Positions 7,954 to 36,519 of a stretch of 64,000 nucleotides of DNA are shown piece after piece; position 1 is the stretch's first letter; every line of letters starts with the position of its first letter. The stretch covers positions 158,848-222,847 of the forward strand of contig JAUIFE010000004.1 in NCBI GenBank assembly GCA_030429565.1. Direction: 5' to 3'. The translations under genes and the position numbers were made by a program. The DNA is from Holophagae bacterium. Lineage in GTDB: Bacteria > Acidobacteriota > Holophagae > Acanthopleuribacterales > Acanthopleuribacteraceae. Below the pieces are notes generated by a model that saw only the letters and a list, made by a program, of their open reading frames with translations, searched no databases and was not told where the DNA came from.

Positions 7954-10518
<2,565 letters not shown>

Positions 10519-12014
10519 CGGAGGCTTGTGTTTTGGATTGCAAGGCGAAAAGCGCCGAAGGTGGCGATTGGGCGGCTTATTTTTCTTGGCTGGCCGAGCA
10601 AGGTTGTCGCTTTCCCTATATTCAGGTCGCGCTGCATGCCGACGGTGAACGGGCGTTGCGTGCCAAAAAAAGTTTTGACGGCAAAGACGAGATCGTTTTT
10701 GTACCGCGCAGCTTGATGATTACCCCTGGATTGGTTCACCAGTCGCCGTTGGGGGCCTTGCTCAAAGAACACGATGTGCAGTTACACTCGTCGCAAACGT
10801 TGATTGCTTTGTTCATTTTGGAAGAGAAACGGCGTGGCAACAGTTATTGGCAATTTTTTCTCGATCACTTGCCCGAGACCTACGATCACATCCCCGCCTA
10901 TTTTAGCGACGAACGCCTTGACGAGCTCAAGGGGTCGTTTACCTACCGGCCGATTCTCTACCGGCGCCAATTGATTCAGCGCGAATATGAAACTGTGCGG
11001 GACAAACTGGGGGCGGTGCGCGATTGGTCTTTCGAAGAAGTGCGTTGGGCCTTAACCGTGGTCAACACGCGCTGTTTTTCGCTGCCCAACGAAGAAGGCA
11101 AAGACGAACCGGTGGTGGTGCCTTTGGCCGACATGATGAATCACGGCGAACCGGCCAATGCTAAGTGGCGTTGTGATGAGCCGGGCGGCGGTTTGGTGAT
11201 TCGCGCGCGTGGGCCCATTGCCGCCGGCCGCCAAATCACGATTAGCTACGGTCAAAAAACCAAGGGGCGCTTTTTCGCCAGTTACGGGTTCTTCGATTTG
11301 AACAATGATCGTTGGCAGGCGGTATTGCCGATTCACATCGACAAAGACGATCCCTATTTTGGCGAAAAGCAGACCTTTGTGCACCGCCAGCAAGGGCCGC
11401 GATTTGCGCTGCATTACCGCCGTTATGAAAAGCTGGCGCGTGCGTTGCGTGCCGTGCGCTGCCTGTTGACCGATTGGCACGTCGCCTGGGAACGGCGCAT
11501 GGTGCTGGCCGGCAAGGTGGTTTCGCAGGAAAACGAACGCATGACGATGATGTATTTGGTCGGCCTTTGTCGCGATGCACTCGAAGCATTTCCACAGACC
11601 TTGGAAGAGGATCGCGCTCTGTTGTTGGACGAAACGCGTATGAGTCGATTGTCGCTACCCGAGCAGTCGGTAGTGCAGTTGCGCTGCTCCGAAAAACAGG
11701 TTTTAACGCGGGTTGCGGCCTTTGCGGCGAGTGTTGCCGACCTTTTAGAGGCCGACACCCAAGAGGTGTTGGAGGTCCTGGTTAAACCGGAGGCGGTCGA
11801 GGCCTGGCCACCTGCTTTGCGGCGCTGGTTCCAGTCGTGGTCGGAAGAAATGGTGCCGGTCTTGTTCGCAGAGAGTGGTTCGCGTCGGTTGGAAGAACCC
11901 CTGACGCGGCCCATGATTGGTGATGATGGTGAGGACGGCGACGAAGAGGCGATGCTGTCAGAGGATGCACCAAAATCGTCGGAAAAATGATGCGGGTGGC
12001 GTTGTTTGTCGCGC

Positions 12015-13175: not shown

Positions 13176-15641
13176 ATGACCGAACCACAGCATGGGCAAG
13201 ACGGATTGGGCGATGGCGAGCCCTGGCTGCGCTACCGCCGCATCGGTCCCTATAAGATTCAGCGCGAGTTGGGTCAGGGCGGCACCGGCCTGGTGCTGTT
13301 GGGTATTCGCGAGGACGATACCCGCAAACAGGTCGCGGTGAAGGTGTTGAAGCGCGGTATGGACAGCGGTGAAATCCTGCACCGCTTTTACCAGGAGCGA
13401 TCCATCTTAGCCTCGCTCAGTCATCCCTACATCGCTCAGCTCTACGATGTTGGGTGCACCGAGGACGGCCTTCCGTATTTTGTCATGGAATATGTCGATG
13501 GTCTCAGCCTGGTGCGCTATGCGGCCGCACGACGGCTCACCCTTCACGCGCGCCTCAAATTGTTTCTGCGGATTTGCGAGGCGGTCAACTACGCCCACCA
13601 AAAGCTGGTCGTGCACCGCGATCTCAAACCCGCCAATATTTTGGTGACCCAACAAGGCGATCCCAAATTACTTGATTTCGGTATCGCCGGCCTGGTTCGC
13701 GATGATCAGGAAGAGGTCGTCACCGATTATCACCATCGCATGCTCACCCTTGAATACGCCAGCCCGGAACAGCTTCGCGGCGAACCGCTGGGTACGACCA
13801 CCGACGTCTATTCCAGCGGCGTCATCCTCTACGAGTTGCTGACCGGCAAGCGTCCGTTTCAGTTCACCGGGAAAAACGCCATGCAGGCGGCTGATCATCT
13901 GGCTTCGCAAACCATGCCGCCACGACCCAGTGCCACCGTGCCGCAACGCAAATTGTCCACGCTCGAATTAAACCAAATTAGCGATGCTTTTAAAGGCTCC
14001 TGGTACCGCAAATTATTCTTGCGTTTGCGGGGGAGCCGCATTGATCGCGACCTCGACCGCATTGTTCTCAAGGCGCTGCATTTCCGCAGGGAAGACCGCT
14101 ATGCGAGTATCGAAGCTTTGGCAGGCGACGTGCGCCGGTACTTACGCGGCTTGCCGATCAAAGCCCGACCACAGAGTTTCGGATACCGGGTGAATCGTTT
14201 CTTTAAGCGCAATCGAGTGCCGATTTTGGCTTCGGTTCTCGCGGCGGGTTTGGTTCTGGGTTCCACACTGCAGGCCTGGCGCAAGCAGCACGAAGCCGCG
14301 GTACAGCGTGACGAAACGGAAATTCTCGTGTCTTTTATGACCGACTTGTTTCAGTTAGACGGTTCGGTTGATGCTTATGGCGACGAGGTTTCGGCCAAGT
14401 TGTTGTTGGACCGCGCCGCGCGCAAGCTCGGTCAAGATTTGGATGCCTTGCCCACGATTCGCGGTGAGTTGCGCATTAAAGTGGGCCTCGCTTACGATGG
14501 CTTGGGTTTGTACGAAGATGCCTGGCATGTTTTTCAGGATGCGTTGCGCGACACCGAAAACGCCTATGGTCCCGACAGTCTGGAGACCGCCAATGTGCTT
14601 TATGAAGCTTCCTTGCTGGCAAGCGAAAGCCGCTATCACGATCAGGTTCGCTTGATGTTGGAGCGGGCGCTCAAAATCCGTATTGCTGCTTATGGCGAAA
14701 AACACCAAGAGGTCTGGAATGTGCTTAGCTTGCTCGGCTATTACTACCAAATCGTCGGTGATCTCAGTCGCGCCGAACACTATTACCGCCGCTCCTATGA
14801 GGGCCGACTCGAACATTTGGGACCTGACCATCCCCATTTAATGGAGAGCATCAATCAACTTTCGATTATTGCCATGCACGATAGCGACTGCGAAAAAGCG
14901 GCCGACGGCTTCAAGCGCGTGATTGATTTCGACACGCGCACCAAGGGGCCGTTATCGCGCGATACCGTCGCGCTTCTGGGCAACCTTGGTTTGGTGTATG
15001 TCGATTGCGGCAATTACGAACAGGCGATTGCCTATCATTCGGAACAACTGCAGCGCAGCCGACGCATTTACCAGCCGAACCATCCTTATTTGGCGGCTGC
15101 TTTAATTTTCCTGGCCGATGCCATGCGGGCGGGTGGGCGCCTCACGGAAGCTGAAGCCCTCTTGCAGGAAGGCCTTGAGGTGTTGGACAAAACCCTGCAT
15201 CCCGATCACACTTACTACGGCAAACTGCGTTTGGTGTTGGGTCGGACTTACTGCGATATGGGCCGCTACGATATGGCCGAGGCCGAGTTAAACCAGACGC
15301 TTCGAATTAACACCCTCAATTTCGGCGCCACCCATTACCGCACCGCCCGCGCACTCATGGCCCGTGCTGATTTGGCCTACCGTCGCGATGATGTGCGCGG
15401 TGCCGAAAACGACGCTCGCAATGCTTTGGAGATCTTTGAGCGCTTGTACGGTACTAATTACTTCCGTACTGCTTACGCGCGGGTGCTGGTTGGCGTTTGC
15501 CTCATCCGATTGGGACGCGTCGAGGAAGGGGAGCGGTTTGCCATGGCCGGTTACCAAGTGTTGAACAAAGTTCAGCCCGATGGAGAGTACACCAAACTTA
15601 CCAAAGACCGCTTGGGTGCCCTGGGCCTAAACAGCTTGTGA
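13176..15641 (+). CDS. Hanks-type Ser/Thr protein kinase with TM helix and C-terminal TPR (TPR_10/12-like) repeats
   Basis: kinase motifs GQGGTGLVL, VAVKVL, HRDLKPANILV, DFGIAG, SPEQ; TM VPILASVLAAGLVLGSTL; at least 8 TPR-like repeats (A..Y......G...EA); lacks the ECF-associated N-terminal motif. Confidence 0.85.
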   Translation: MTEPQHGQDGLGDGEPWLRYRRIGPYKIQRELGQGGTGLVLLGIREDDTRKQVAVKVLKRGMDSGEILHRFYQERSILASLSHPYIAQLYDVGCTEDGLPYFVMEYVDGLSLVRYAAARRLTLHARLKLFLRICEAVNYAHQKLVVHRDLKPANILVTQQGDPKLLDFGIAGLVRDDQEEVVTDYHHRMLTLEYASPEQLRGEPLGTTTDVYSSGVILYELLTGKRPFQFTGKNAMQAADHLASQTMPPRPSATVPQRKLSTLELNQISDAFKGSWYRKLFLRLRGSRIDRDLDRIVLKALHFRREDRYASIEALAGDVRRYLRGLPIKARPQSFGYRVNRFFKRNRVPILASVLAAGLVLGSTLQAWRKQHEAAVQRDETEILVSFMTDLFQLDGSVDAYGDEVSAKLLLDRAARKLGQDLDALPTIRGELRIKVGLAYDGLGLYEDAWHVFQDALRDTENAYGPDSLETANVLYEASLLASESRYHDQVRLMLERALKIRIAAYGEKHQEVWNVLSLLGYYYQIVGDLSRAEHYYRRSYEGRLEHLGPDHPHLMESINQLSIIAMHDSDCEKAADGFKRVIDFDTRTKGPLSRDTVALLGNLGLVYVDCGNYEQAIAYHSEQLQRSRRIYQPNHPYLAAALIFLADAMRAGGRLTEAEALLQEGLEVLDKTLHPDHTYYGKLRLVLGRTYCDMGRYDMAEAELNQTLRINTLNFGATHYRTARALMARADLAYRRDDVRGAENDARNALEIFERLYGTNYFRTAYARVLVGVCLIRLGRVEEGERFAMAGYQVLNKVQPDGEYTKLTKDRLGALGLNSL

Positions 15642-32753: not shown

Positions 32754-33244
32754 GGTGTTACTCCTGAGGACTCGCTCGCCACTTGGCAAACGGGTTGAAT
32801 TACTTAAATAGATATGGGGAAGGGATGAAACGCTGATCCATTTCCGGGATCGTCCCACTGGGGTCTCACCCATGCGGGGCAGCCACCGTAACGGGTCGAG
32901 GTCGGCCGGAAACCCTGCCCGTGACACGATGCGCAAGGCGGACCGTGGGCGAGGTGGGTTAAGGTGGCGCGACGCGTCGCCGTGTTGGTTGGCTGCCGCA
33001 AGGCAATTGAAATGTTTTCCGCGGAAAGGCCGCCGGCGGACCGGTTGCGTTTCGGCTCAGATCACAAGGACGCCCGGCCGGCCGGCAAAAACGCGGCATC
33101 GTTTTGGGCCCACCGCGACCGGTCCGTAGCTACGGGTGGTGATTGGTGGGCGCGCCGCGACTTGGCGAATCTGTGTCGGGTCGGACGGCTTGTACCGTTT
33201 CATCCCTATCGAAAATGAGGCGTCATGGACGCCGGGATTAAAAT

Positions 33245-33299
33245 GAAGGAATCGAACCTCCGTCAACAGATGATGTATCTGTTGCTCTACCAAATGAGT
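33245..33299 (-). other. tRNA-like fragment (D-arm, anticodon arm with CAT, T-arm) lacking a pairing acceptor stem
   Basis: minus-strand CTCATTTGGTAGAGC (D-arm), ACAGA-TACATCA-TCTGT (anticodon arm), GGAGGTTCGATTCCTTC (T-arm) with tRNA-like spacing, but the flanking 7-mers cannot pair and position 33 is A. Confidence 0.3.
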
Positions 33300-33664
33300 T
33301 TATGGTGGGGTCAAGATGGGGTAGGTTGTAAATCTACCGCCAGGACACTACCTGGAGCTCTCCTCCTGGGAAAGCGTTTCTTGAGGAATCGTTGAAACTC
33401 AAACGCGACACCAGAACGGAACGGGCCGACAACAAGCACAAAAGCGCGTCGGTACGCCGCATGGCGAGCTCGTCTCGCGACTCGGGGAAGCGTAATAGCA
33501 GCCGGCGTGCCAACACTTTTGCTGAGTTAACTATTTGTTTGTAAATATCTAAAATAAATGAAGTTAATCGGCTGTTTTGGTTGGTGGGGCTTTAAACGTT
33601 TCGATTGATTATTGATCGGGTAATCGAGAGTTTAGATAGGTGTCTAAAAAAGGTAGCCTATTAT

Positions 33665-34933
33665 CTAAATAGTTTTTTGAGGTTTCAAAAGTGTGGCACA
33701 TGCCTCAATACCGCGCTTGCTCTCGACGCCTCCAGCGACGTGATCGTCGCCGACTGGTTTCCGTGCCCAACGACGCCCGCATGTCCACCAGTGGCGGAAG
33801 GGTTCGGCCAAGCTTGGTGGTGGCGCTTGTAGCGGACGCATGTGGCAAAAGGCGGCAAGGTCTTGTCGGAGGGCCGCTACCGACGAATAGCGTTGTTGCG
33901 GTGCTTTGGCCAATGCTTGGAGTGCGATCCAACTGACCTTTTCGTAGAGGCGCGTGTGCCAAGTTTCTGGGTCGGTGCCGCGGTCATGGGCGCGCCGGCG
34001 CCGCTCTTCGTAACGCAAATTCCGCCACAGCAGTCGGGGCGGTAACGGACGGCGTTCGCAAATGTCGCGGTAGATCTGTAGCGGGCCCGCGTTTTTAGGC
34101 CAAGTTAACGGCGGCTCGCCAACCAGCAGTTCGTAAAGCAAAACACCCAGTGCATAAACATCGACACGGCCGTCTTGGGTGTCGCCACCGCCGGCCTGTT
34201 CCGGGCTCATGTAACGCAGCGTGCCTGGGGAGTAAGGGCAGTGGGTCAGGTTATGATCGTTGTTGAGATCTTTGGCGATGCCGAAATCGATGAGTTTGAC
34301 GCGGGCAGCACCGTTTTCCCGGCATACGAGTACGTTGTTGGGTTTGATGTCGCGATGAACGATGCCCTGTTGGTTGGCGTAGGCGACCGCATCACAAACT
34401 TGGTCAAAGAGCGCCAGCCGTTGCGTTAAATCGCAACGATGTTCGTCGCAGTAGCGCGTGATCGCTTGGCCGCGCACCAGCTCCATCACAAAGTAGGGCC
34501 GACCGTTGATCAGACGACCCGCCTCGTGCAAGGCGGCAATGTTGGGGTGATTGAGCCGGCTAAGAAATTGTTGTTCAATCGCAAACCGTTCGCGAATCTC
34601 GGTGTTGCCGGTTGCGAGGGTAAGGATCTTGACGGCCACCTGACGGCCGTCTTCTTCTGATTCGGCCAGGTAGACGGTACCCATGCCGCCTTGGCCTAGC
34701 ACCTCACGGAGTCGGTAGGGACCGATTTGCTCTTCATCAAACCCGCCCTGTTTTTGACCGCCGGCCCATTGCGATAAATCGTCCGTTTCCGTTGCCAGAT
34801 AGTCTTTGAGTTCAGCCGCGAGATCGGGTCGTGTTCCAGCCAGTTGGGCCAGATAGCTCCGGCCCGCCTGTGTATCCATGGTGTCTAGGGTTTCCAGGTG
34901 TTGGTTCAGTTCGCGCCAGCGTTTGACGTCCAT
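33665..34933 (-). CDS. Hanks-type Ser/Thr protein kinase immediately downstream of an ECF sigma factor gene (ECF-associated kinase)
   Basis: start MDVKRWRELNQ with GAGGAGAAGG SD; kinase motifs GQGGMGTVYLA, VAVKIL, HRDIKPNNVLV, DFGIAK, SPEQ; begins 18 nt after the sigma-factor stop. Confidence 0.8.
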   Translation of the reverse strand: MDVKRWRELNQHLETLDTMDTQAGRSYLAQLAGTRPDLAAELKDYLATETDDLSQWAGGQKQGGFDEEQIGPYRLREVLGQGGMGTVYLAESEEDGRQVAVKILTLATGNTEIRERFAIEQQFLSRLNHPNIAALHEAGRLINGRPYFVMELVRGQAITRYCDEHRCDLTQRLALFDQVCDAVAYANQQGIVHRDIKPNNVLVCRENGAARVKLIDFGIAKDLNNDHNLTHCPYSPGTLRYMSPEQAGGGDTQDGRVDVYALGVLLYELLVGEPPLTWPKNAGPLQIYRDICERRPLPPRLLWRNLRYEERRRRAHDRGTDPETWHTRLYEKVSWIALQALAKAPQQRYSSVAALRQDLAAFCHMRPLQAPPPSLAEPFRHWWTCGRRWARKPVGDDHVAGGVESKRGIEACATLLKPQKTI

Positions 34934-34950
34934 AGCCTTCTCCTCGCTGC

Positions 34951-35544
34951 TCAAGCCGGTTGTTGCAAGTTGCGTTTGAGCCACATCTTGGCAATCTTCC
35001 ATTCGCGGCGGACCGTGCGTTCCGATAAATCCAAGACAGCGGCGGTCTCATCGACATTGAGTCCCAAAAAGAAACGCAACTCGACAATGGCGGCCTTGCG
35101 TTCATCCAGACGACGAAATTCATCCAGGCACTGATTGAGGCTGATCAACAAGGTCGGGTCCGGCGTGCCGCTATCGGCCTGTTCATCTTCTTCTAATGGT
35201 TGACGTTGCAGATCCTTACCGCGTTTTAGTGAATCGCGTCGGCGGCTTTCTTGGACCAGGATTTGGCGGATGATCATGCGTGCGGTGTTAAAGAAGTGGG
35301 CACGGCTCTCAAACAGGGCGGGTGGGCTACCCAACAGGCGTGCGTATATCTCGTGAACCAAACCGGTCGGCTGTAAGGTGCGGCCTTGGCCGTGGCGCAG
35401 AAACCAATGGGCGATATTGCGCAACTCGCTGTAGATCAGCGGGAAGAGGTCGTCCAACGCTTCTTTGCGACCCCCGTGCCAGCGATGCAGAAGTTGAGTG
35501 ATGTCAGATCGATCTTCATTTCGTTGGGGTTGACGATTAGGCAT
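34951..35544 (-). CDS. ECF-subfamily RNA polymerase sigma factor (kinase-associated type)
   Basis: ITQLLHRWHGGRKEALDDLFPLIYSELRNIAHWFL is a sigma-2 region typical of the ECF group found with Ser/Thr kinases; sigma-4 HTH near the C-terminus (ETAAVLDLSERTVRREW); start MPNRQ with GGAGG SD. Confidence 0.8.
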   Translation of the reverse strand: MPNRQPQRNEDRSDITQLLHRWHGGRKEALDDLFPLIYSELRNIAHWFLRHGQGRTLQPTGLVHEIYARLLGSPPALFESRAHFFNTARMIIRQILVQESRRRDSLKRGKDLQRQPLEEDEQADSGTPDPTLLISLNQCLDEFRRLDERKAAIVELRFFLGLNVDETAAVLDLSERTVRREWKIAKMWLKRNLQQPA

Positions 35545-35838
35545 GAGGACCTCCGCGACTTGAGATGGTTTTACTCTAACCGTCGCCACTCGGCCCTCCC
35601 AGTTACAGATGTAACGGGTTCGCTCGACTTTTGTCCGCCGTCGTTTCGGGTTTCTCGCCGAATAGACCTTGCCTCTCGGAAGAAGTGAATAATCCGTAGA
35701 GAATGCGTTTTTTATTAATTAGTAGCCCCGCCGCTATTTCGAAAAAATGAAAAAAAAGCCGGCCGGTTTTTCCTTGGTCAGGCCTATTGCCTTGGTGACG
35801 ACCGGATGAGCCGGTTACTTTATTTTCGAGGTATTGCT

Positions 35839-36519
35839 ATGTTTCAGAACGCTCTCAAAAACATGATGATGGTTGCTTTCGCTTGCGTGCTCAGTGCTCA
35901 AGCTTTCGGTTCCTGCAAAACGAATTTTGTCATGATTCAAGACAAATGGTGCAGCGATGGCAGCGCCAAATTCTACGCTATTGGTGATTCCGGAATCACC
36001 ACTTGGAACTGGACTTTTACCATCGGCGGCCAAACGGCCAAATTCTCCACGCGTACCAACGGGGTTGATATCGCGATTGAAAACTTCGCGCCGGTTAAAC
36101 TCGAGCCTGGTCAGTCATACAAAGTGCGTATCGATACCTTCTGCAAAGGAACCGGCGAAAGCGCTTCCTACACCAAATACGGTACGCTTGGTTCTTCCTG
36201 TGTGCGTCGCAAAATGGGTCAAAGTGCACTTGAATTGGACCTGAACAGCGCAGAGCAAGAAGCCTTAGGCGATTATCTGACCCACCTGAACCACGCCTCT
36301 AAAGGTAAAGCCGCTTACTTGGCCGCCAACACCGGGAACCACGTTTTGGTGAATGACACCGATCAAGTTCAAAGCTACGTGCTCGTTGAAAAATGGTCTG
36401 GTGCTGAAATGATCAGCGGCGCCATCGAACTGGCCCCAGGTGAGCATTTCGAACTCGACGCGCAGAACCAAGAAATTTTTGTCTTCGGCGCCGGCGAGCT
36501 GTTTGCCCAAGACAAATAA
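35839..36519 (+). CDS. hypothetical secreted protein
   Basis: ATG 35839; signal peptide MFQNALKNMMMVAFACVLSAQAFG; 226 aa; no recognised family. Confidence 0.5.
   Translation: MFQNALKNMMMVAFACVLSAQAFGSCKTNFVMIQDKWCSDGSAKFYAIGDSGITTWNWTFTIGGQTAKFSTRTNGVDIAIENFAPVKLEPGQSYKVRIDTFCKGTGESASYTKYGTLGSSCVRRKMGQSALELDLNSAEQEALGDYLTHLNHASKGKAAYLAANTGNHVLVNDTDQVQSYVLVEKWSGAEMISGAIELAPGEHFELDAQNQEIFVFGAGELFAQDK

What the first reader, a model, noticed from the sequence alone, without database searches (positions are those of the whole stretch)
33665..35544. ECF sigma factor gene followed by a Hanks kinase, with an orphan paralogous kinase elsewhere in the window
The sigma factor (34951..35544) has the HRWHGGRKEALDDLFPLIY-type sigma-2 region. 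It is followed 18 nt later by a kinase whose N-terminal 50 aa (W-R-E-L ... YLAQLAGTRPDLAAEL) are clearly similar to the N-terminus of the kinase at 7954 (W-K-R-L ... YLAQLEQSDPDLYIEL). The third kinase (13176) lacks this motif. This fits the ECF class in which a Ser/Thr kinase takes the place of an anti-sigma factor. The 7954 kinase has the same N-terminal module but no adjacent sigma factor, so it may act in trans on this sigma factor.
Basis: partly seen in the sequence, partly recalled or inferred. Interest (0 to 1): 0.55.

Follow-up and report, generated by a model that had tools for sequence, protein, structure and literature searches.

The report
Kinase-activated ECF43-type sigma factor pair
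This is an ordinary member of a known class of bacterial switch, in which a sigma factor is turned on by phosphorylation from the protein kinase encoded next to it.

Summary
Window 34951..35544 (-) encodes a 197-aa sigma factor of the TIGR02999/PF07638 type, with the ECF43 hallmarks. 17 nt downstream lies a 422-aa Hanks kinase (33665..34933). The sigma has no acidic sigma2.2 motif; it has Q58-P-T60-G with a conserved Thr. This is the EcfP/PknT and EcfK/PknS paradigm, in which the kinase activates the sigma by phosphorylation rather than sequestering it.

Three further points emerged.
- **Sensor-less kinase.** It has no transmembrane or sensor region, and all four orthologous loci share this (406-422 aa).
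- **N-terminal motif.** The motif shared with the 7954 kinase is real (E=3e-7) but not private to these two. It is a three-helix domain with no Pfam family, found in at least 54,749 protein clusters, homologous to PknS residues 7-55, and linked to an upstream ECF43-type sigma (odds ratio 9.3, p=1.4e-4).
- **Orphan kinase.** About a fifth to a quarter of kinases with the domain lack an adjacent sigma. The 7954 kinase is a conserved orphan in a lineage-specific family of membrane kinases with a weak tetratricopeptide (TPR) signature.

Action in trans on this sigma remains possible, with only weak support. Verdict: new member of a known kind, moderate interest.

The parts
34951..35544 (-). ECF43-type sigma factor gene (197 aa). 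The predicted phospho-acceptor Thr60 is the codon at 35365..35367, within the sigma2.2 sequence T56-L-Q-P-T60-G-L-V-H-E.
   Evidence: PF07638 149 bits, TIGR02999 170.5 bits (cutoff 126.15), region 4 hits, no Sigma70_r2 hit. T60 and Q58 are at least 90% conserved or invariant in 27 homologues.
35597..35633 (-). Conserved block upstream of the sigma gene containing the perfect palindrome GTTACA-TC-TGTAAC (35599..35617). Candidate autoregulated promoter or operator.
   Evidence: Nearly invariant in all four orthologous loci while the flanks diverge. It occurs only at this orthologous position in 1.49 Mb of fetched DNA and once in the window.
34934..34950 (-). 17-nt sigma-kinase spacer with the ribosome-binding site GGAGAAGG. 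It implies co-transcription.
   Evidence: Read directly from the sequence.
34784..34933 (-). N-terminal three-helix module of the sigma-linked kinase (aa 1-50).
   Evidence: Module profile hit at 9e-10. AlphaFold2 helices 3-17, 21-34 and 36-47, pLDDT 87-94. The profile hits PknS residues 7-55 at E=4.6e-6, the top hit in the PDB. dN/dS 0.23 against L168.
34724..34783 (-). Flexible linker (aa 51-70).
   Evidence: pLDDT below 50 for residues 49-64. [quoted passage not shown]
33824..34723 (-). Hanks-type kinase domain plus conserved post-kinase helices (aa 71-370), with all catalytic motifs intact.
   Evidence: Pkinase 2e-44. GQGGMG 80, VAVK 99, HRDIKPNN 193, DFG 216, SPE 243. The best PDB match is PknS 9EED at 8.8e-50. 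dN/dS 0.10.
33665..33823 (-). Short C-terminal tail (aa 371-422 plus stop): one helix, then disorder, no transmembrane segment. Probably the vestige of a juxtamembrane region.
   Evidence: The maximum Kyte-Doolittle 19-residue score in the whole protein is 1.21, against 2.74 for the 7954 kinase. pLDDT is below 50 for residues 393-422. dN/dS 0.62. The orthologues end at the same point.
7954..10518 (+). Orphan membrane receptor kinase (854 aa) carrying the same module (aa 1-52, nt 7954..8109), a kinase domain from aa 82, a transmembrane segment around aa 407-425 and a helical C-terminal region with only a weak TPR signature.
   Evidence: The orthologue in Acanthopleuribacter pedis has 68% identity and the same synteny, with no sigma.

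Best explanation
The locus is a two-gene signalling operon of the ECF43 type.

**Sigma (inferred from family knowledge).** The sigma factor is intrinsically unable to bind core RNA polymerase well, because its sigma2.2 region lacks the acidic DAED/DxxD patch. The co-transcribed Hanks kinase phosphorylates Thr60 in Q-P-T-G, and possibly linker Ser/Thr residues. This supplies the negative charge and switches on the sigma's regulon, which probably includes its own operon through the conserved palindromic block upstream.

**Module (inferred).** The kinase's N-terminal three-helix module sits on a flexible linker. It is a widespread unnamed domain characteristic of ECF43-partner kinases and most likely recruits or recognises the sigma.

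**Peculiarity of this lineage (shown).** In this family-level relative of Acanthopleuribacter (Acidobacteriota, Holophagae), the cognate kinase is a soluble, sensor-less form that ends where its relatives have their transmembrane helix. Its activity must therefore be set by expression level, by a cytoplasmic cue, or by other kinases.

**The 7954 kinase (shown).** It is a separate, conserved orphan member of a lineage-expanded family of membrane kinases with a weak TPR signature that carry the same module variant.
For: Family assignment:
- TIGR02999 scores above its curated cutoff, PF07638 hits, and there is no Sigma70_r2 hit, consistent with the divergent sigma2 noted for ECF43 (PMC7826278).
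- The sigma2.2 sequence TLQPTG has Thr60 at least 90% conserved and no acidic residue. This matches the QTTA/STTA/QATE motifs and phospho-Thr of ECF43 (PMC13147305, PMC8999054).

Pairing with the kinase:
- A 17-nt spacer with a ribosome-binding site separates the two genes.
- The same sigma plus short kinase pair and the same synteny occur in four orthologous loci.
- In a genome survey, 60 of 84 homologous sigma genes are followed by a same-strand kinase. 49 of those kinases have the module at E<1e-3.

Kinase and module:
- The kinase's best PDB match is PknS, the proven ECF43 kinase.
- The module profile hits PknS residues 7-55 at E=4.6e-6.
- Module presence against an upstream sigma in a kinase-centred metagenome sample gives 35/12 versus 5/16, odds ratio 9.3, p=1.4e-4.
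- Catalytic motifs are intact, and dN/dS is 0.10 for the kinase domain and 0.23 for the module.
- No transmembrane segment is present, the orthologues are equally short, and the tail is disordered and nearly neutral.
Against: - No phosphorylation, binding or expression data exist for this locus. The mechanism is transferred from EcfP/PknT and EcfK/PknS.
- ECF group assignment with the ECF Hub models could not be run.
- In EcfK the equivalent Thr is not strictly required, and a linker Thr is also important (PMC13147305). The acceptor site here is therefore uncertain.
- The docking role of the module is inferred from co-occurrence only. 21-26% of module kinases have no adjacent sigma, and Foldseek found no informative structural analogue.
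- A sensor-less kinase leaves the input signal unexplained.
Confidence: 0.78

Rival explanations
1. The orphan 7954 kinase, and its membrane paralogues with a weak TPR signature, use the shared N-terminal module to dock on this same sigma and phosphorylate it in trans, or they activate the sensor-less cognate kinase. They would supply the missing sensory inputs, in a many-kinases-to-one-sigma hub.
For: - The module is statistically coupled to ECF43 sigmas.
- The cognate kinase has no sensor.
- All five relatives of the 7954 kinase examined are orphans. These are its A. pedis orthologue P0245 and four paralogues: P0247, P0250 and P0257 in A. pedis, and P0252, apparently from the window's own genome.
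- These orphans and the cognate kinase share the rare Cys-less module variant. Cys is present in 85-96% of modules elsewhere.
- After orthologues, the orphans rank 4-10 of 209 by N-terminal similarity to the cognate kinase, although they rank 68-205 by kinase-domain similarity.
Against: - Only 64 kb of a roughly 10-Mb genome is visible, so other ECF43 sigmas may exist elsewhere and be the real partners.
- N-terminal alignment scores are small (50-74 raw). The sample was selected by similarity to these two kinases. Shared lineage ancestry alone could explain the variant.
- Orphan module kinases are common in all phyla sampled.
- Cross-talk between Hanks kinases and non-cognate ECF43 sigmas has not been reported in the papers read.
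Confidence: 0.2
2. The module is a general regulatory or dimerisation domain of this kinase clade, not a sigma-docking device. Orphan kinases such as 7954 phosphorylate unrelated substrates, for example the co-oriented SET-domain protein downstream, and have nothing to do with this sigma.
For: - 10-12 of 47 module kinases lack an adjacent sigma.
- The module can occur in 2-10 tandem copies.
- The 7954 kinase keeps a conserved partner-like neighbour, a SET/Rubis-subs-bind protein, in A. pedis.
Against: - The association with sigma adjacency is strong (odds ratio 9.3).
- The module is present in the experimentally validated PknS.
- All longer module proteins inspected are kinases of this clade.
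Confidence: 0.3
3. The short kinase is a decaying remnant of a receptor kinase truncated by a rearrangement next to a tRNA gene, and the sigma is now non-functional or served only by other kinases.
For: - The protein stops exactly at the juxtamembrane position and its tail evolves almost neutrally.
- A tRNA-like sequence lies 360 nt downstream.
Against: - The short form is conserved in four taxa down to 53% identity.
- All catalytic motifs are intact, and dN/dS is 0.10 for the kinase domain and 0.23 for the module.
- Short sigma-adjacent kinases also occur in Planctomycetota and Gemmatimonadota (L042, L056).
Confidence: 0.05
4. A conventional ECF sigma held by an unrecognised anti-sigma factor, for example the divergent 237-aa lipoprotein at 35806..36519. 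The kinase would be merely a neighbour.
For: The divergent gene has no Pfam match and is conserved in three of the four orthologous loci.
Against: - The sigma lacks the acidic sigma2.2 patch.
- The lipoprotein has a signal/lipobox-like N-terminus and no anti-sigma domain, and it is absent from L169.
- Kinase adjacency is the conserved feature across phyla.
Confidence: 0.03

Closest known systems
EcfK / PknS of Xanthomonas citri (ECF43; PDB 9EED; PMC13147305)
   Same: - An ECF sigma without the DxxD patch and with a Thr in sigma2.2, encoded directly upstream of a Hanks kinase.
- PknS is the best PDB match of the window kinase (8.8e-50).
- PknS residues 7-55 match the N-terminal module profile (4.6e-6).
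- The same predicted layout: a helical N-terminal module, a flexible linker and the kinase domain.
- Both modules lack the usually conserved Cys.
   Different: - PknS is a 99-kDa transmembrane receptor with a large C-terminal region. The window kinase stops before any transmembrane segment.
- EcfK keeps one acidic residue (QATE), whereas the motif here is QPTG.
- The EcfK regulon (a type VI secretion system) has no counterpart next to this locus.
- The kinase domains share only about 35-40% identity.
EcfP / PknT of Vibrio parahaemolyticus (ECF43; Iyer et al. 2020, as summarised in PMC8999054)
   Same: The model mechanism: an intrinsically inactive sigma lacking DAED, with Thr phosphorylation in S-T-T-A supplying the charge needed to bind the beta-prime subunit.
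   Different: PknT is a membrane kinase responding to polymyxin stress.
Other kinase-associated ECF groups (ECF59-62, ECF217, ECF267, ECF283; PMC7826278)
   Same: An ECF sigma genomically linked to a Ser/Thr kinase, without an anti-sigma factor.
   Different: According to PMC8999054, those groups generally retain a DAED-like acidic motif. The window sigma does not, and it matches TIGR02999/PF07638, so ECF43 is the better fit. Formal group assignment was not run.

Membership tests
ECF43-type (kinase-activated) ECF sigma factors | Group IV sigma-70 architecture (sigma2 plus sigma4 only) matching the family-specific models | tested here: met
   PF07638 covers residues 13-194 (149 bits, cutoff 21.1). 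TIGR02999 scores 170.5 bits (cutoff 126.15). Region 4 hits cover 144-180.
ECF43-type (kinase-activated) ECF sigma factors | Sigma2.2 lacks the acidic DAED/DxxD motif and carries a conserved Thr (consensus Q-T-T-A) | tested here: met
   Residues 56-65 read T-L-Q-P-T-G-L-V-H-E. The four-residue motif has no Asp or Glu. Q58 is invariant and T60 at least 90% conserved in 27 homologues. Motif definition from PMC13147305 and PMC8999054.
ECF43-type (kinase-activated) ECF sigma factors | A Hanks-type Ser/Thr kinase gene in conserved adjacency | tested here: met
   The kinase starts 17 nt after the sigma stop. The arrangement is the same in four orthologous loci. 60 of 84 homologous sigma genes are followed by a kinase.
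ECF43-type (kinase-activated) ECF sigma factors | No co-encoded anti-sigma factor | tested here: met
   The neighbours are the kinase, a 237-aa lipoprotein-like protein with no Pfam hit (absent from L169), ChrA and a response regulator. This is negative evidence only.
ECF43-type (kinase-activated) ECF sigma factors | Assignment to group ECF43 by the ECF Hub/ECFfinder HMMs | not testable with these tools
   The classifier and its models are not available here, and EcfP/EcfK sequences were not retrievable.
ECF43-type (kinase-activated) ECF sigma factors | Activation by phosphorylation of the sigma by the cognate kinase | not testable with these tools
   Requires biochemistry: an in vitro kinase assay with mass spectrometry, and T60A/T60E alleles.
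Hanks-type (eukaryotic-like) Ser/Thr kinases | Complete catalytic core (G-loop, VAxK, HRDxKxxN, DFG, A/SPE) | tested here: met
   GQGGMG 80, VAVK 99, HRDIKPNN 193, DFG 216, SPE 243. Pkinase 2e-44. AlphaFold2 pLDDT is mostly above 90 over the domain.
PknS/PknT-like receptor kinases (ECF43 partners) | N-terminal helical module preceding the kinase domain | tested here: met
   The module profile hits both window kinases (about 1e-10) and PknS residues 7-55 (4.6e-6). The three-helix model has pLDDT 82-94.
PknS/PknT-like receptor kinases (ECF43 partners) | Transmembrane helix and a C-terminal sensor region | tested here: not met
   For the 33665 kinase, no hydrophobic window reaches 1.6 (maximum 1.21), and the protein ends 52 aa after the conserved core with a disordered tail. 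The feature is met for the 7954 kinase: transmembrane segment at 407-425, with only weak TPR hits.

The most novel reading that the evidence does not exclude
The roughly 50-aa three-helix module is a portable sigma-docking domain. In this Acanthopleuribacter-like lineage, a single ECF43-type sigma, whose own kinase has lost its sensor, would be the common target of several orphan membrane kinases with a weak TPR signature: 7954 here, P0252 and P0248 elsewhere in the same genome, and at least four in A. pedis. All carry the same Cys-less module variant. The result would be a many-sensors-to-one-sigma phospho-hub, in place of the one-kinase-one-sigma pairs described so far.
Probability: 0.15. 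Interest if true: 0.65.

Novelty: new member of a known kind. Interest (0 to 1): 0.36.

Why it matters
Sigma-factor activation by Ser/Thr phosphorylation has been shown experimentally in only a few proteobacteria: EcfP in Vibrio, an ECF43 sigma of Hyphomonas neptunium, and EcfK in Xanthomonas. This locus shows the same design in Acidobacteriota, with a naturally sensor-less, soluble kinase. That makes it a convenient minimal system for biochemistry.

The more general by-product concerns the N-terminal region that was invisible in the PknS crystal. It is a discrete and extremely common domain (at least 54,749 clusters at 50% identity), it has no Pfam family, and it is statistically linked to ECF43 sigmas. 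It sometimes occurs in tandem copies. This gives a concrete, testable candidate for how these kinases recognise their sigma, and for whether orphan kinases can share one.

Tried and rejected
- Foldseek of the module model against the PDB gave a best E of 2.2, with only generic helical matches. No anti-sigma-domain resemblance could be shown.
- A Pfam scan of 24 module sequences gave nothing significant.
- A PDB sequence search with the sigma gave no hit at E<=0.01.
- A search for a degraded sigma gene upstream of the 7954 kinase found none. This used six-frame segments of at least 20 aa and hmmsearch --max at E<=10.
- A search for the upstream palindrome elsewhere in the window, with up to 3 mismatches, found none. 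No regulon could therefore be inferred.
- I attempted a transitive test through a Xanthomonadales pair (L047, Aquimonas). Its kinase is less similar to PknS (144 bits) than the window kinase is (173 bits), so the test was uninformative.
- Iyer et al. 2020 is not held in the library, and two literature searches on the N-terminal domain found nothing relevant.
- The context look-up for paralogue P0248 failed because it is not on record.
- The longer ORF readings are rejected: sigma from the GTG at 35589 and kinase from the ATG at 35002, which overlaps the sigma. Only the 197-aa and 422-aa forms are in public collections, and the orthologues start at the same residues.
- A -35/-10 reading of the conserved upstream block was not convincing. 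No conserved -10 lies at a 16-17 nt spacing.
Full report
**What is at the coordinates.** On the minus strand, 34951..35544 encodes a 197-aa protein. 17 nt after its TGA, behind a GGAGAAGG ribosome-binding site, 33665..34933 encodes a 422-aa protein. These exact products, and not the longer ORF readings, are the ones present in public collections, on a 563-kb NCBI contig.

The first protein matches Pfam PF07638 (Sigma70_ECF, 1.8e-43). It also matches NCBIfam TIGR02999 at 170.5 bits, above the curated cutoff of 126.15. It has region-4 hits but no hit to the ordinary Sigma70_r2 model.

The second protein is a Hanks kinase, with Pkinase covering residues 73-283 at 2e-44. Its G-loop, VAVK, HRDIKPNN, DFG and SPE motifs are all intact.

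**The N-terminal similarity.** The first ~70 residues of this kinase and of the 854-aa kinase at 7954..10518 align with 15/44 identities, E=3e-7. The third kinase (13176..15641) begins its catalytic domain at residue 26 and has no such region. A six-frame scan of the window finds one sigma of this type, three kinase domains, and the N-terminal motif only in these two kinases. Nothing sigma-like lies in the 900-bp gap upstream of 7954. Pfam scans of the other small ORFs that could have been sigma factors found none.

**Which kind of sigma.** Papers held in the library define group ECF43 by three features (PMC13147305, PMC8999054, PMC7826278):
- a Hanks kinase gene in conserved adjacency;
- no anti-sigma factor;
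- a sigma2.2 region that lacks the acidic DAED/DxxD patch and has Q/S-x-T-A with a conserved, phosphorylated Thr.

EcfP/PknT of Vibrio and EcfK/PknS of Xanthomonas are the tested cases. There, phosphorylation supplies the negative charge needed to bind the beta-prime subunit.

The window sigma reads T56-L-Q58-P-T60-G-L-V-H-E. In an alignment of 27 homologues, Q58 is invariant, T60 is at least 90% conserved, and no acidic residue occupies the four-residue motif. The neighbours are the kinase, a 237-aa lipoprotein-like ORF without any Pfam match, a chromate transporter and a response regulator. No anti-sigma domain is present.

Group membership therefore rests on the defining features, not on the formal assignment.

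**Conservation of the pair.** The closest homologues come from Acanthopleuribacter pedis (Acidobacteriota, Holophagae) and three uncultured relatives. Their sigmas are 64-88% identical and their kinases 53-75% identical. I fetched three of these loci, which with the window makes four orthologous loci. All four have the order response regulator, ChrA, sigma (197 aa), kinase (406-422 aa), and three of them also carry the small lipoprotein gene between ChrA and the sigma.

I scanned one genome per species with the sigma alignment and kept 80 loci from Acidobacteriota, Planctomycetota, Verrucomicrobiota, Gemmatimonadota and a few Gammaproteobacteria. In 60 of 84 sigma genes, a same-strand kinase domain begins 230-650 nt downstream. 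Several of the remainder sit at contig ends.

**The kinase is a sensor-less form.** The 422-aa protein has no hydrophobic window approaching a transmembrane helix. Its maximum Kyte-Doolittle 19-mer score is 1.21. The corresponding scores are 2.74 for the 7954 kinase (residues 407-425) and 1.75 for the 13176 kinase.

Its orthologues stop at the same place, just after the PPSL...RR juxtamembrane motif that precedes the membrane helix in relatives.

An AlphaFold2 model (mean pLDDT 83.4) shows the following layout:

| Region | Residues | Confidence |
|---|---|---|
| Three N-terminal helices | 3-17, 21-34, 36-47 | pLDDT 87-94 |
| Linker | 49-64 | pLDDT below 50 |
| Kinase core | about 70-370 | high confidence |
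| One further helix | 376-389 | not assessed separately |
| Disordered tail | 393-422 | pLDDT below 50 |

Comparing the window with locus L168, dN/dS is about 0.10 for the kinase domain, 0.23 for the N-terminal module and 0.62 for the tail. Synonymous sites are near saturation, so these values are rough. The gene is therefore functional and old, not a recent truncation. Only its tail looks vestigial.

Among 53 complete sigma-adjacent kinases in the survey, the median region after the kinase core is about 605 aa, and most have a membrane-like segment. Apart from the A. pedis orthologue, only two short forms were seen (L042 and L056), together with four very long soluble ones. Short partners are thus rare but not unique.

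**What the N-terminal motif really is.** I iterated a profile from the two window kinases and their orthologues, which converged on a 38-position motif (consensus ALEIADPAERAAFLDRACAGDPALRARVEELLAAHEDA).
- It is present in 88 of the 122 closest relatives of the short kinase and 88 of 120 relatives of the 7954 kinase.
- A profile search of 1.84 billion cluster representatives finds 54,749 proteins at E<=1e-3 and 7,791 at E<=1e-10.
- Every longer hit I inspected is a Hanks kinase with the motif N-terminal to the catalytic domain. Some carry 2 to 10 tandem copies.
- No Pfam family covers it.
- Against the PDB, the profile's top hit is residues 7-55 of PknS (9EED), E=4.6e-6. PknS is also the best whole-kinase match of the short kinase, at 8.8e-50.
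[quoted passage not shown] It assigns no function (PMC13147305).
- My model of the isolated module is a three-helix bundle (pLDDT 81.6). Foldseek gives no informative match.

**Is the module tied to the sigma?** In the sigma-centred survey, 49 of the 60 downstream kinases carry it at E<1e-3.

In an independent, kinase-centred metagenome sample, I classified each kinase that had enough upstream sequence:

| | Sigma upstream | No sigma upstream |
|---|---|---|
| Module present | 35 | 12 |
| Module absent | 5 | 16 |

Fisher's exact test gives an odds ratio of 9.3, p=1.4e-4. Of the 12 module-bearing orphans, two have a sigma about 1 kb upstream and three sit beside another sigma-kinase pair.

The module is therefore a hallmark of ECF43-partner kinases, but 15-26% of its carriers are genuine orphans. 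The most economical reading is that it recognises or recruits the sigma. That is an inference from co-occurrence, not a demonstrated function.

**The orphan kinase at 7954.**
- Its orthologue in A. pedis (P0245, 68% identity over the full length) has the same neighbours: a divergent TonB-dependent receptor and a downstream SET/Rubis-subs-bind protein. It has no sigma.
- It belongs to a lineage-specific family of roughly 920-aa membrane kinases with weak TPR hits. Four paralogues whose context could be read are also orphans: P0247, P0250 and P0257 in A. pedis, and P0252. P0252 and P0248 are reported on a contig of the same length as the window's.
- The kinase domains of 7954 and the short kinase are only 37% identical and rank 198 of 209 in similarity. 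They are not recent paralogues.
- Even so, after the short kinase's own orthologues, the lineage's orphans occupy ranks 4-10 of 209 by N-terminal similarity.
- Both groups lack the Cys that is present in 85-96% of modules elsewhere. They have Ala or Glu at that position, and PknS has Ala.

This fits either shared ancestry of the modules or adaptation to a common partner. It is weak evidence, it comes from a sample selected by similarity to these same two proteins, and the rest of the genome is unseen.

**Verdict.** The locus is a new member of the known ECF43-type sigma/Hanks-kinase class.

Shown here:
- the family features;
- conserved adjacency;
- the sensor-less architecture and its conservation;
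- the breadth of the module, its homology to the PknS N-terminus, and its statistical link to the sigma;
- the conserved orphan status of the 7954 kinase.

Inferred:
- phosphorylation of Thr60;
- the docking role of the module;
- autoregulation through the upstream block.

Not resolved:
- what signal controls a kinase without a sensor;
- whether the orphan membrane kinases feed into this sigma.

Noticed in passing
window 32937..33664 (minus strand), especially 33375..33520 and 33243..33303: The 730-nt non-coding gap between the kinase and the Band_7 gene is strongly conserved with the orthologous gap of L168. It includes a block of about 140 nt at more than 90% identity. It contains a tRNA-like sequence with a CAT anticodon loop (Rfam tRNA 26.9 bits, below the gathering score of 29; ARAGORN is silent). 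The L168 counterpart is called tRNA-Met(CAT), and the A. pedis counterpart, 77% identical, is called tRNA-Asn(GTT). This may be a degenerate tRNA plus an unannotated structured RNA or leader.
   Followed up: partly
window 35597..35633 (minus strand): A conserved block ACAAAAGTCGA-N6-CCGTTACATCTGTAACTGG lies about 55-90 nt upstream of the sigma ATG and contains the perfect palindrome GTTACA-TC-TGTAAC. It is nearly invariant in four orthologous loci whose flanks have diverged. It is not found elsewhere in the window or in 1.49 Mb of fetched loci.
   Followed up: partly
window 10485..11990 (+), overlapping the end of the 7954 kinase gene: A SET-domain / Rubisco-LSMT-substrate-binding protein lies immediately downstream of the orphan kinase and is co-oriented with it. 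The same pairing is conserved in A. pedis (L163 7583..8980). This may be a kinase/lysine-methyltransferase operon.
   Followed up: no
P0363 (1156 aa), P0372, P0374, P0377, P0381 and other hits: The N-terminal three-helix module occurs in 2 to 10 tandem copies in front of some Hanks kinase domains. This suggests it is an autonomous binding unit.
   Followed up: partly
window about 35745..35775: A palindromic AAAAACCGGCCGGCTTTTTTT hairpin lies between the divergent lipoprotein gene and the sigma gene. It is conserved, with changes, in A. pedis. It resembles a bidirectional terminator sitting inside a divergent promoter region.
   Followed up: no
L111, L117, L154 (metagenome loci): Some apparently orphan module kinases sit directly upstream of another sigma-kinase pair, giving kinase-sigma-kinase clusters. 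L028 and L038 carry two sigma-kinase pairs within 6 kb.
   Followed up: no
window 35806..36519 (+): A 237-aa protein with a signal/lipobox-like N-terminus (…AQAFGSC) and no Pfam match lies divergent from the sigma gene. It is conserved in L001 and L168 but absent from L169. It is a possible target gene of the sigma.
   Followed up: partly
L163 1..2098 and L165 1..1988 (A. pedis): Further large kinases with clear TPR repeats (1168 aa and 914 aa) lie a few kb upstream of the orphan kinases P0245 and P0247. This lineage therefore clusters several such kinases.
   Followed up: no
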